Positions 31,371 to 33,878 of a DNA stretch of 64,000 nt are shown one piece after another. The translations under genes and the position numbers were made by a program. Position 1 is the stretch's first letter; every line of letters starts with the position of its first letter. Source of the stretch: the human T2T-CHM13v2.0 reference genome, Homo sapiens; the NCBI GenBank assembly GCA_009914755.4, contig CP068257.2, forward strand, positions 30,432,001 to 30,496,000, written 5' to 3'. A model generated the notes under the pieces. That model had not been told where the DNA came from, made no database searches, and worked only from the letters and a program-made list of their open reading frames with translations.

Positions 31371-33228
31371 CCTTCATCTGTCCATCTCCTTAGAAGTCTG
31401 CCAGTGAGGTGCACAGATGAGGAATGTCAGGCTGCCCAGGATGGCATCAGCCAGCTGACTGCTTGCAAGTGGCTCCATGGGCCCTAGAGAAGGGAGGAGG
31501 CCAGCCTCCTCAATCTGAATGCCCTTCTGCTTTATGAGCCTTGCCTCTGCTGCCATTTTTAGCAGCAGCTTAACTTGCAGGGATACTGCCCTGGTCCTCA
31601 GCTGCCATCCCAGACCTGCAGGCGATGCCTGGGCGCTCCCTCCCTGCTGTCACAGGACACTCACCACCCGCTGATAGCCAGCCTGCTTTTTTGACATTGT
31701 GAGGCATCTGCCTGGACAGCCAAGGACAATGCTGCAGTTTCTGTGGAAACCTGAGTGCCTGTAAGGACTCTAGTGGGGACTCTAACCCACCATTGGGCAG
31801 GCTCTGGGAGAGGCTAGAGAATGGTGGTCAACCACCTGAGTGAGGTCTGTCTGATCTGTGACCCGAGGGATGTCACTCACTCTGCAGCAAGGGGCCCTCT
31901 CTGGGCCTCAGCTTGCTTCTCCAGTGAGAAATTGCCAAGCCTGGCCACCTGCCTGAAATGAGGGTAAGAGGAGACAGAAGCAGCACGAACACAAACTAAC
32001 ACTTAAAGGGATTATCTTGTCAGTTGCATGGGACTTTCTTTTGCTGTCCATGGAGATAGCTGTAGGAAGAGGGATGGAAAGGTGGAGGAGGGAGTGGGGC
32101 CTGATTCTTTGATGTAGAGAGAGGTACAAGAAGAAGTAGAAGGCTTGGTTTCGATAAGAGGCATTTTAGATTTGGCCATCCCAGGGGCCCAGATGATGCA
32201 GTAGTGGAGGAAGCCAATCTTGGACTCCCTCTTCTCCTCAATTCTTCCCTGGGTCATGGTGCAGCTCAGGACCTCTGAAGGCTTTGGCTGCTCTCCGTGG
32301 AAGACTTTGGGACCAGTCAGCACATGGCCTATTGGCAGATTCACAAAGGGCATCTCCCATCTCACTCTGCTGTGCAAGTAAATGGTTATGAAGCCTTCAG
32401 AGGTGCCACAGAGAGGCCCCAGGGCTGAAGACCATGCATGAACTCTTTTAGCATGGAAAAACACTCACGAAGGCAGTTATTAGTTATAGCACCCTATTTA
32501 GAGACTTTATAAGACACAATTTTTGTTTTATCAATTTGTAGGAACATAGATCATTTACTGTTTGCTGACTATGGTTCTCCCATGAGGACCTCTCTCTCTC
32601 ATGCTTCCTTCTTCCTAGTAGTTATAGAACCACTCAGACTACATTTCCCAGTTTCCCCAGTGCCTAACCATGGTCATGTGACTAAATTCCAGCAAATGGG
32701 ATGCTATGGAAGTGACGTGTGTATAGCTGCCAGGGAAGCTGCTTGCCCTCCACATCTTTTATCAAGGCTAGAAGGTGAACTTGGGGTAATGAACCAGTCC
32801 TAATGAGGATGTAACCAAAGGGAACGGTAGAACAGTGAAATGAAAGGAAGTTGGATCCCTGTATGACCTGCCAGATCAGAGCAGCTGCCCTCCATCCTCT
32901 CTCCCGAAACTGCCCTGTTCAGCTCAAACTTTAAAGGAGAGAAAAATGAACATTCCATCTTGTTTAAGTCACTCTTATTTTCATCTCTGCTAAAGCAACT
33001 GAACCAACATATACAAACTGGATCAATAAGTAATTTGCGCTGTGATTTTGCTTACTATCATGCACATATATTGGTGTCCAAAAAACATGAGTGTGAAATC
33101 TTGTCAAAAGTTTGCTCACATGTTACCTGTTTTTTCCTGCCAACCAACACCACACACCACTTTCTCATAAAGGTCTTCTTAGATCCAGGAAGCTAACCCA
33201 GAACCCTTTAAAAATGATCATATTCTCT

Positions 33229-33545
33229 GGCCGGGCGCGGTGGCTCACGCCTGTAGTCCCAGCACTTTGGGAGGCCGAGGCGGGTGGATCACGAGGTCAG
33301 GAGATCGAGACCATCCTGGCTAACAAGGTGAAACCCCGTCTCTACTAAAAATGCAAAAAATTAGCCGGGCGCGGTGGTGGGCGCCTGTAGTCCCAGCTAC
33401 TCGGGAGGCTGAGGCAGGAGAATGGCGTGAACCCGGGAAGCAGAGCTTGCAGTGAGCCGAGATTGCGCCACTGCAGTCCGCAGTCCGGCCTGGGCGACAG
33501 AGCGAGACTCCGTCTCAAAAAAAAAAAAAAAAAAAAAAAAAAAAA
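33229..33545 (+). mobile_element. AluYb8-type young Alu, full length, A29 tail, perfect 11 bp TSD 'ATCATATTCTC'
   Basis: CpG-rich Y-type body. It has Yb diagnostics: 'ctggctaacaaggtgaaaccccgtctc' and the 7 bp duplication 'cactgcagtccgcagtccggcctgggcgacagagcgagactccgtctc'. The poly-A tail is at 33517..33545. The TSD lies at 33217..33227 and 33549..33559. Confidence 0.9.
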
Positions 33546-33878
33546 CACATCATATTCTCAAACAGCTAATAGAAAGGTCAATTCAGAGTGATTTACCTTC
33601 AGAGAGGGACCCTCAGAGAGAACCTTGTTTTGGGGAGTTGTAAGAAGCCCTGTAGGCTCTATGACCTTATATCTCAGATTTTTAGGACAATTCTAATTTA
33701 AACTATTCTGGCCCAGTTCCCACAAATGTATTTGTAAGTGTACTTGCCATGGTTTTTGTTGAGAAATGTGGTCGCAGTCCCTACGGGCCCCTCAGCTGAT
33801 TGTCATCCCTTCGTGTCATCTTGCCCTCTGGTCTTCCTCCTGCCAACTCAGGAAGGTCTAAACTCAGGGGACAGAGGA

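What the first reader, a model, noticed from the sequence alone, without database searches (positions are those of the whole stretch)
33217..33559. Full-length AluYb8-type insertion with pristine hallmarks; candidate human-specific/polymorphic insertion
The element keeps nearly all CpGs. It carries the Yb-lineage 7 bp duplication ('cagtccgcagtccg') and 'aacaaggtgaaacc'. It has an unusually long, pure A29 tail and a perfect 11 bp TSD (ATCATATTCTC). Yb8 elements are largely human-specific, and a substantial fraction are insertion polymorphisms. The uninterrupted long A tail argues for very recent insertion. If the surrounding locus is intronic, presence/absence could affect splicing or local methylation.
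Basis: partly seen in the sequence, partly recalled or inferred. Interest (0 to 1): 0.5.

Follow-up and report, generated by a model that had tools for sequence, protein, structure and literature searches.

The report
Ordinary young Yb-lineage Alu insertion
This is a normal, full-length copy of a young primate "jumping gene" (an Alu of the Yb7/Yb8 type) with the usual insertion scars. It is real and well described, but it is one of about 2,400 such copies, and nothing here shows it is unusually recent or variable between people.

Summary
A full-length Alu body (33229-33516, + strand) carries the Yb-lineage 7-nt duplication and the AACAAGG motif. An uninterrupted A29 follows it, and a perfect 11-nt target-site duplication (ATCATATTCTC) flanks it at 33217-33227 and 33549-33559.

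- One extra T lies between the 5' duplication and the Alu.
- CAC lies between A29 and the 3' duplication.
- The body differs from the Yb8 consensus at 5 of 288 positions (1.7%). One is the ancestral C at position 64, which makes it "Yb7.3" rather than strict Yb8. Two are decayed CpGs and two are private A>G changes.

If the four private changes arose after insertion, the age is about 3.8 Myr (95% 1.0-9.7). That is typical for Yb8, not "very recent". A29 equals the mean tail length reported for polymorphic Alus, so it is not exceptional.

I could not test human-specificity or polymorphism. No orthologous or empty-site sequence was reachable, and I found no coding exon in the window, so the host gene is unidentified. 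Published figures favour a human-lineage-specific copy that is probably fixed. The first TTTT lies 82 nt past the tail, so this copy is probably a poor source element. Verdict: already known, low interest.

The parts
33207..33214 (+). TTT/AAAAA. This is a canonical L1 endonuclease motif (bottom strand TTTTT/AAA), 7 nt upstream of the TSD that was actually used. It is context only and was apparently not the nick that gave the 11-nt TSD.
   Evidence: Read from the sequence. The canonical site 5'-TTTT/AA-3' is as quoted in PMC4607524.
33217..33227 (+). 5' target-site duplication, ATCATATTCTC.
   Evidence: It is 11/11 identical to 33549-33559. The chance rate is 0.1%.
33228..33228 (+). One extra T between the 5' TSD and Alu position 1. 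It is either a non-templated or filler base, or a transcript that started at -1 in the parent locus.
   Evidence: It is absent from the 3' TSD context and from the Alu consensus.
33229..33346 (+). Left Alu arm, carrying the internal RNA polymerase III A box (about 33241-33251, TGGCTCACGCC) and B box (about 33300-33312, GGAGATCGAGACC).
   Evidence: Matches Metazoa_SRP (7SL) at 57.3 bits, E=6.6e-14, below the gathering score of 70. The box regions are identical to the consensus, and the minimum-energy fold is identical to that of the Yb8 consensus left arm.
33347..33361 (+). Middle A-rich linker (AAAAATGCAAAAAAT), with a private A>G at 33353.
33362..33516 (+). Right Alu arm, including the Yb-lineage tandem 7-nt duplication GCAGTCC|GCAGTCC at 33473-33486.
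   Evidence: Matches Metazoa_SRP at 54.1 bits, E=5.7e-13, and the Alu-derived mir-1268 model at 70.4 bits, both below gathering. The duplication is seen in the alignment to AluY.
33292..33292 (+). Alu position 64 is C (the ancestral AluY CpG state), not the Yb8 T. This is the Yb7.3 signature.
   Evidence: The definition is quoted from PMC4607524.
33517..33545 (+). Uninterrupted poly(A) tail, A29.
33546..33548 (+). CAC between the pure A run and the 3' TSD. It is either a tail-end irregularity or 3 nt copied from beyond the parent's A-tail.
   Evidence: It has no counterpart upstream of the 5' TSD, where the bases are ATG.
33549..33559 (+). 3' target-site duplication, ATCATATTCTC.
33628..33631 (+). 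First TTTT (RNA polymerase III terminator) downstream, 82 nt after the tail.
   Evidence: The significance of the distance follows Comeaux et al. 2009 as quoted in PMC4607524.

Best explanation
This is a single, complete retrotransposition copy of a Yb-lineage Alu (a Yb8-like element with the ancestral C at position 64, i.e. 'Yb7.3').

Proposed mechanism:
1. A parent Alu was transcribed by RNA polymerase III.
2. Its poly(A)-tailed RNA was captured by L1 ORF2p.
3. ORF2p reverse-transcribed the RNA directly onto a nicked chromosomal target (target-primed reverse transcription).
4. The staggered second-strand break was filled in, producing the 11-nt duplication.

The nick was at a non-canonical site (bottom strand TGAT/CA). 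The junctions carry small fillers: T at the 5' end and CAC at the 3' end.

The copy most likely entered the human lineage roughly 1-10 Myr ago (point estimate 3-4 Myr). It is most likely absent from other apes and now fixed. It sits passively as a CpG-dense, probably methylated, non-coding insert. With the terminator 82 nt past the tail, it is probably a poor parent for further copies.

Shown here: the anatomy, the subfamily states, the statistical significance of the TSD, and the 7SL relationship.
Inferred: the timing, fixation, lineage-specificity, methylation and activity.
For: Anatomy and TSD.

Subfamily: 98.3% identity to Yb8, against 93.1% to AluY and 90.0% to AluSx. All Yb states are present except position 64. 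My from-memory consensus numbering reproduces the published positions 64 and 144 and the duplication at about 246-252.

7SL relationship: both arms match the 7SL Alu domain.

Age:
- 2 non-CpG plus 2 CpG private changes give 3.8 Myr (95% 1.0-9.7), at 0.15%/Myr for non-CpG sites (rate from PMC3831846) and 9.7 times that for CpG sites. PMC4607524 gives six to ten times.
- CpG retention of 22/24 gives about 3 Myr by the same rate. That clock puts the AluY at 62866-63142 (16 of 26 CpGs) at about 17 Myr, which is sensible.

Published background:
- Most Yb insertions occurred 3-4 Myr ago, after the human-chimp split, and 499 of 2,433 full-length Yb copies are polymorphic.
- Only 22.5% of validated young Alus use the exact TTTT/AA site, and TSDs range 7-22 nt.

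Source activity: the first TTTT is 82 nt downstream, and >=15 nt is reported to reduce activity strongly.
Against: - No orthologous ape sequence or empty human allele was seen, so lineage-specificity and fixation rest on published figures and a four-event molecular clock with a wide interval.
- Some or all private changes could have been inherited from the parent copy, which would make the insertion younger than estimated.
- A perfect TSD and a pure A29 tail are also what polymorphic insertions show: 93% have perfect TSDs and the mean tail is about 29.
- Validated polymorphic Yb8 copies range up to 2.1% divergence, so 1.7% does not exclude polymorphism.
- The species of the window was not established independently.
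Confidence: 0.85

Rival explanations
1. This is a very recent insertion that is still polymorphic (present or absent) among humans.
For: - The TSD is perfect and the A29 tail uninterrupted.
- These match validated polymorphic Alus: 93% have perfect TSDs and the mean tail is about 29.
- About 20% of full-length reference Yb copies are polymorphic (499 of 2,433).
- Seven Yb7.3-type elements were found in a set of 77 polymorphic Yb8 elements, 67 of them full-length.
- A divergence of 1.7% lies within the 0-2.1% range of polymorphic Yb8.
Against: - There are four private changes beyond the Yb7.3 state. P(>=4) is 0.0002-0.02 for ages of 0.25-1 Myr, unless the changes were inherited from the parent.
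- The mean divergence of polymorphic Alus is 0.8%, so 1.7% is in the upper tail.
- None of the markers quoted for Yb9/Yb10, Yb8a1, Yb8b1 or Yb7a3 falls among its five differences, and there is no indel as in Yb11.
Confidence: 0.08
2. This is an old Yb-lineage copy that inserted before the human-chimpanzee split (a product of an early 'stealth' source) and is shared with other apes.
For: - The Yb lineage predates the human-chimp divergence (Conclusions of PMC3831846).
- The element has the ancestral state at position 64 and two non-CpG private changes. On their own these give 5.6 Myr, with a 95% interval reaching 20 Myr.
Against: - Almost all young Yb copies are human-only.
- 22 of 24 CpGs are retained, which gives about 3 Myr.
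- The TSD is perfect and the 29-nt tail pure, whereas the AluY in this window keeps only 16 CpGs.
- Yb7.3 copies are still inserting in modern humans, so C64 is not a mark of antiquity.
Confidence: 0.05
3. This is an older Alu that was overwritten by gene conversion from a Yb8 copy, so it looks young without being a new insertion.
For: Gene conversion between Alus is documented (Roy et al. 2000, listed in the references of PMC4607524). The AluY-like C at position 64 could be read as a conversion-tract boundary.
Against: - Yb states are present on both sides of position 64, from 57 to 258, so there is no mosaic.
- Conversion would not restore a perfect TSD or a pure A29 tail.
- C64 is a recognised heritable sub-subfamily state.
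Confidence: 0.01
4. This copy is itself an active source ('stealth driver') that seeds further Yb7.3 copies.
For: - The A and B boxes are intact and the left arm folds like the consensus.
- The tail is a pure A29.
- The A28G change lies in the unpaired UGUAAU segment, and it recreates the UGUAGU that the element's own right arm carries. Human 7SL RNA also has UGUAGU (from my own knowledge).
Against: - The first TTTT is 82 nt past the tail, and >=15 nt is reported to reduce retrotransposition strongly.
- No daughter copies carrying 28G/125G/150T/214A could be searched for.
- Dense CpG content implies probable methylation and silencing (inference).
Confidence: 0.03

Closest known systems
AluYb8 subfamily (Repbase/Dfam consensus; formerly 'Sb2')
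   Same: - 283 of 288 positions are identical (98.3%).
- It has the 7-nt GCAGTCC tandem duplication and CTAACAAGG.
- It has the Yb states at positions 57, 89, 96, 98, 144, 211, 236 and 248.
- It is full length, with a poly(A) tail and a TSD.
   Different: It has C rather than T at position 64. It also has four private changes: A28G, A125G, C150T and G214A.
AluYb7.3 sub-subfamily (Carroll et al. 2001, as used in PMC4607524)
   Same: It is a Yb8-type element that lacks only the CpG C>T change at position 64. This is the tightest published label that fits.
   Different: Four further private substitutions. It does not carry the Yb7a3 markers (207A, 243T, 268A).
Validated polymorphic Alu insertions of the 1000 Genomes pilot (PMC4607524)
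   Same: The TSD is perfect and falls in the 7-22 nt range. The A-tail is uninterrupted and about 29 nt long. The endonuclease site is non-canonical, as in 77.5% of those loci.
   Different: Divergence is 1.7%, against a mean of 0.8%. This copy is in the given assembly, and its polymorphic status is unknown.
7SL (SRP) RNA Alu domain, Rfam RF00017
   Same: Each arm aligns end to end with the 5' and 3' Alu-domain parts of the model (57.3 and 54.1 bits).
   Different: The S domain is absent, with about 195 model positions skipped. Scores are below the gathering threshold of 70. It is a dimeric SINE, not an SRP RNA gene.

Membership tests
Alu SINE (dimeric, 7SL-derived) | Two arms homologous to the 7SL Alu domain, joined by an A-rich linker | tested here: met
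   Two Metazoa_SRP matches at 33230-33344 and 33364-33518 (E about 1e-13). The linker AAAAATGCAAAAAAT lies between them.
Alu SINE (dimeric, 7SL-derived) | Internal RNA polymerase III A and B boxes in the left arm | tested here: met
   The box regions are identical to the AluY/Yb8 consensus. Transcription itself was not tested.
Alu SINE (dimeric, 7SL-derived) | 3' poly(A) tail and flanking target-site duplication of about 7-22 nt (L1-mediated TPRT) | tested here: met
   A29 plus an 11-nt perfect TSD, with a chance rate of 0.1%. The expected range comes from PMC4607524.
AluYb lineage | Tandem duplication of 7 nt (AluY positions about 246-252) with the adjacent C>G change | tested here: met
   GCAGTCCGCAGTCC at 33473-33486. 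The definition is in PMC3831846.
AluYb8 (strict) | All Yb8 diagnostic substitutions, including the CpG C>T change at position 64 | tested here: not met
   Position 64 is C (window 33292). All other Yb8 states are present. PMC4607524 calls this state Yb7.3. A RepeatMasker-type classifier would still label it AluYb8, because that is the best consensus.
AluYb9 / Yb10 / Yb11 / Yb8a1 / Yb8b1 / Yb7a3 | The extra diagnostic changes quoted for each: 174/274 (Yb9, Yb10), 259A (Yb8a1, Yb10), a T insertion at 200-201 (Yb11), 260A (Yb8b1), and 207A/243T/268A (Yb7a3) | tested here: not met
   Its only differences from Yb8 are at positions 28, 64, 125, 150 and 214, with no indel. The markers are as quoted.
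Human-specific Alu insertion | Empty orthologous site in chimpanzee, bonobo, gorilla and orangutan | not testable with these tools
   No primate genome is searchable. Flank 24- and 28-mers gave 0 hits in the metagenome, GTDB-genome and viral contig collections. Flank ORFs gave 0 hits in the protein collection.
Polymorphic (dimorphic) Alu insertion | Both filled and empty alleles observed in human populations | not testable with these tools
   No population call set is available. TSD and flank strings did not turn up in any relevant paper or held supplement.
Active Alu source element | Intact promoter, a long pure A-tail, and a TTTT terminator within about 15 nt of the tail | tested here: not met
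   The promoter and the A29 tail meet the criterion. The terminator is 82 nt away, and the criterion is quoted.

The most novel reading that the evidence does not exclude
The copy may be a still-segregating human insertion, or a low-activity Yb7.3 'stealth' source. In that case the CAC after the A-tail would be a 3-nt carry-over from its parent locus, primed by microhomology (primer …GAT-3' on RNA …CAC-AUC) at a non-T-rich nick. That would give a rare traceable parent-daughter link for an Alu.
Probability: 0.06. Interest if true: 0.25.

Novelty: already known. Interest (0 to 1): 0.08.

Why it matters
It matters little beyond annotation. Yb-lineage Alus are a well-catalogued class: 2,433 full-length copies, of which 499 are known to be polymorphic (PMC3831846). 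Any standard repeat annotation will already label this copy. If it proved polymorphic, it would be one more presence/absence marker. If it lay in an intron, it could in principle supply cryptic splice sites or a methylation focus. I found neither a gene nor an exon in the 64 kb, so that remains hypothetical.

Tried and rejected
1. Orthologous or empty-site retrieval through spurious ORFs. I translated every stop-free segment of >=30 aa from the reconstructed empty site (32450-34005 with the Alu removed). I concatenated these segments (1,374 aa) and searched the 5.8-billion-protein collection. There were 7,348 word-sharing candidates and none at E<=0.001, so human or primate non-coding ORFs are not in that collection.

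2. Exact flank strings. I searched for a 24-mer from the left flank and a 28-mer from the right flank in metagenome contigs, genome contigs and viral contigs. All six scans returned 0 hits.

3. Host-gene identification, so that primate gene loci could be fetched.
- A codon-usage scan showed only CpG/GC-rich segments and the Alu itself.
- Pfam on all 585 non-Alu stop-free ORFs of >=45 aa gave only HTH_Tnp_Tc5 (3.2e-07, a Tigger transposon remnant somewhere in 47-64 kb) and two marginal hits, DUF4234 at 0.004 and SBDS_C at 0.0026.
- The gene was not identified.
- I did not send longer ORF concatenates to the large protein search. From the candidate count, I estimated the word filter would admit millions to billions of candidates.

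4. Literature string search for the TSD and flank sequences. Only unrelated papers contained the 11-mer. The supplements of PMC6191304 are not held, and those of PMC3831846 contain no match. Carter et al. 2004 did not turn up in a search and Roy-Engel et al. 2002 is not held.

5. Rfam at gathering thresholds found nothing in the whole window, as expected, because Alu is not an Rfam family.

6. An 18-nt TSD starting at the canonical TTT/AAAAA site. I rejected it because it would need three consecutive mismatches (ATG vs CAC) in an element that is only 1.7% diverged.

Full report
**1. What is there**

The window is primate-like DNA. GC is 43.6% and CpG observed/expected is 0.21. A BLAST scan with four Alu consensus sequences typed from my own memory found 22 Alu loci.

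At the stated coordinates the sequence reads as follows:
- 5' target-site duplication (TSD) ATCATATTCTC, 33217-33227
- one extra T, 33228
- a 288-nt Alu body, 33229-33516
- A29, 33517-33545
- CAC, 33546-33548
- 3' TSD ATCATATTCTC, 33549-33559

The two TSD copies are 11/11 identical. In 200,000 random placements of an interval of the same size in this window, an exact repeat of >=11 nt in the 30-nt flanks occurred 202 times (0.1%).

**2. What kind of Alu**

The body is 98.3% identical to Yb8, 93.1% to AluY, 92.0% to Ya5 and 90.0% to AluSx. The other 21 Alu loci are 85-93.5% identical to their best consensus.

Against Yb8 the alignment is ungapped, with five differences:
- A28G (window 33256)
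- C instead of T at position 64 (33292)
- A125G (33353, in the middle A-rich linker)
- C150T (33378, a CpG site)
- G214A (33442, a CpG site)

My consensus sequences come from memory, but their numbering reproduces published statements. [quoted passage not shown] PMC3831846 places the 7-nt duplication at AluY positions 246-252.

PMC4607524 assigns Yb8-type elements that lack only the position-64 change to the Yb7.3 sub-subfamily of Carroll et al. 2001. It found seven such elements in its polymorphic Yb8 set (77 elements, 67 full-length). None of the markers quoted for Yb9/Yb10, Yb8a1, Yb8b1 or Yb7a3 falls among the five differences, and there is no indel as in Yb11. So 'AluYb8-type' is right at the level a repeat annotator would report, and strictly the element is Yb7.3 plus four private changes.

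Rfam in E-value mode shows that both arms match the Alu domain of metazoan SRP RNA (57.3 and 54.1 bits, gathering score 70). The right arm also matches the Alu-derived mir-1268 model (70.4 bits, gathering score 83). These are the expected sub-threshold echoes of an Alu. Nothing in the window reaches any Rfam gathering score.

**3. How young is it**

The element holds 23 CpGs, against 2-16 in the other Alus of the window. It keeps 22 of the 24 Yb8-consensus CpGs, plus the ancestral one at position 64. It produces three of the nine CpG-island-like 200-nt windows in the 64 kb, including the one with the highest CpG observed/expected ratio.

I treated C64 as inherited, which leaves four private changes: two non-CpG and two CpG. 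The rates used were 0.15%/Myr for non-CpG sites (from PMC3831846) and 1.46%/Myr for CpG sites. The CpG rate is my recollection and is 9.7 times the non-CpG rate, inside the 'six to ten times' range quoted in PMC4607524. The combined estimate is 3.8 Myr, with a 95% Poisson interval of 1.0-9.7 Myr.

CpG retention alone gives about 3 Myr (22 of 24 retained). The same arithmetic puts the AluY at 62866-63142 (16 of 26 CpGs) at about 17 Myr, which is a sensible internal calibration.

If all four changes arose after insertion, an age of 0.5 Myr or less has P=0.002 and 1 Myr has P=0.02. The caveat is that any of the four may have been inherited from the parent copy. In that case the estimate is an upper bound.

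PMC3831846 states that most Yb copies inserted 3-4 Myr ago, after the human-chimp split. This element looks like an average member of that group.

**4. Is the tail 'unusually long'?**

A29 is the longest homopolymer in the window. However, validated polymorphic Alus have a mean tail of about 29 nt (range 13-62), 93% of them have perfect TSDs, and only 7% have interrupted tails. The tail and the TSD are therefore typical of the young Alu class. They do not separate a 0.1-Myr insertion from a 3-Myr one. The same paper reports an average divergence of 0.8% for polymorphic Alus and a range of 0-2.1% for Yb8. At 1.7%, this copy sits in the upper tail of that range.

**5. Junction details**

With an 11-nt TSD, the first-strand nick lies between G33216 and A33217. 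On the bottom strand that reads 5'-TGAT/CA-3', which is not the canonical TTTT/AA. This is unremarkable, because only 22.5% of validated young Alus use the exact canonical site.

Several older Alus in this window have A-led TSDs such as AAAACTAATACCCTT and AAAAATTTGCTTCC. A canonical TTT/AAAAA site sits 7 nt upstream, at 33207-33214. Using it would give an 18-nt TSD with three consecutive mismatches (ATG vs CAC). That is implausible in a 1.7%-diverged element, because the 3' TSD copy is original target DNA.

The simplest reading is that reverse transcription began on three bases (CAC) lying 3' of the pure A run in the template RNA. That could be an irregular tail end, or the first bases of the parent's 3' flank, possibly aided by AUC/GAT microhomology. 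The extra 5' T would be a filler base or a -1 transcription start. This is inference, and the empty allele would settle it.

**6. Could it be an active parent copy?**

- The A-box and B-box regions are identical to the consensus. The left arm has the same minimum-energy fold as the Yb8 consensus, at -52.4 vs -50.9 kcal/mol.
- A28G lies in the unpaired UGUAAU segment and recreates UGUAGU. The element's own right arm carries UGUAGU, and so does human 7SL RNA (my own knowledge).
- The first TTTT terminator is 82 nt beyond the tail. A distance of about 15 nt or more is reported to reduce retrotransposition strongly (Comeaux et al. 2009, via PMC4607524).
- The copy is therefore probably a poor source element.

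**7. Context**

I found no evidence of a coding exon.
- A codon-usage scan highlighted only GC/CpG-rich stretches and the Alu itself.
- Pfam on all 585 non-Alu ORFs of >=45 aa gave only a Tigger-type transposase remnant and two marginal hits.
- The host gene, if there is one, is unknown.

**8. Lineage-specificity and polymorphism**

- The flank-ORF trick against the protein collection found nothing.
- Exact flank strings were absent from all three contig collections.
- Literature and supplement string searches found nothing relevant.

From published figures, young Yb copies are almost all human-only, and 499 of 2,433 full-length Yb copies (about 20%) are polymorphic. I combined this with the divergence argument above. 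My rough figures are:
- about 0.9 that it is absent from other apes
- about 0.05-0.1 that it is still polymorphic
- about 0.05 that it predates the human-chimp split

The species of the window was not shown independently. If the window were from a non-human ape, a Yb8-like copy would be rarer and more interesting.

**9. Verdict**

This is an ordinary, already catalogued kind of element. Interest is low.

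Noticed in passing
window 22953-23217 and 24255-24516: Two direct-repeat copies of about 265 nt, 97-99% identical, about 1,300 nt apart. Each contains a 101-nt Alu 3' fragment plus an A18-19 run. This looks like a recent local duplication or an LTR-like pair.
   Followed up: partly
window 33228 and 33546-33548: There are filler bases at both Alu junctions: T at the 5' end and CAC between A29 and the 3' TSD. A canonical L1 endonuclease site (TTT/AAAAA, 33207-33214) lies unused 7 nt upstream of the TSD. 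The CAC may be a 3-nt carry-over from the parent locus.
   Followed up: partly
window 33879-33946 and 34009-34032: A 14-nt tandem repeat (CTGCTCCCTCTGAG x4.9) is followed by a pure T24 run that is not attached to any Alu I detected. It lies 450 nt downstream of the Yb element. It could be the tail of a minus-strand retroposed sequence or a simple T tract.
   Followed up: no
window 53473-53753: A compound microsatellite block: a (TC)-rich stretch, an (AT)-rich stretch, then an imperfect (TATC)n array of about 43 units over 167 nt. It is likely length-polymorphic.
   Followed up: no
window 14917-14970: An (AC)28 dinucleotide repeat lies next to the most GC/CpG-rich non-Alu stretch of the window (14551-14750, GC 0.65, CpG o/e 0.62). 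No protein-family match was found there.
   Followed up: no
window 62866-63142 (-): The second-youngest Alu in the window: 93.5% identical to AluY, with 16 CpGs and a 14-nt TSD AAAAATTTGCTTCC.
   Followed up: partly
window about 9300-9700, 30747-31139 and 43670-43981 (+): Three ORF-bearing copies of one interspersed repeat family share motifs such as ...FNGLT.P.GWG.LTIM..G...IKPSD..RLIHYH.NS.... I did not name the family, and it had no Pfam match.
   Followed up: no
window 47271-63999 (exact ORF not located): One ORF in this quarter matches Pfam HTH_Tnp_Tc5 (E=3.2e-07). This indicates a Tigger/pogo-type DNA transposon remnant.
   Followed up: no
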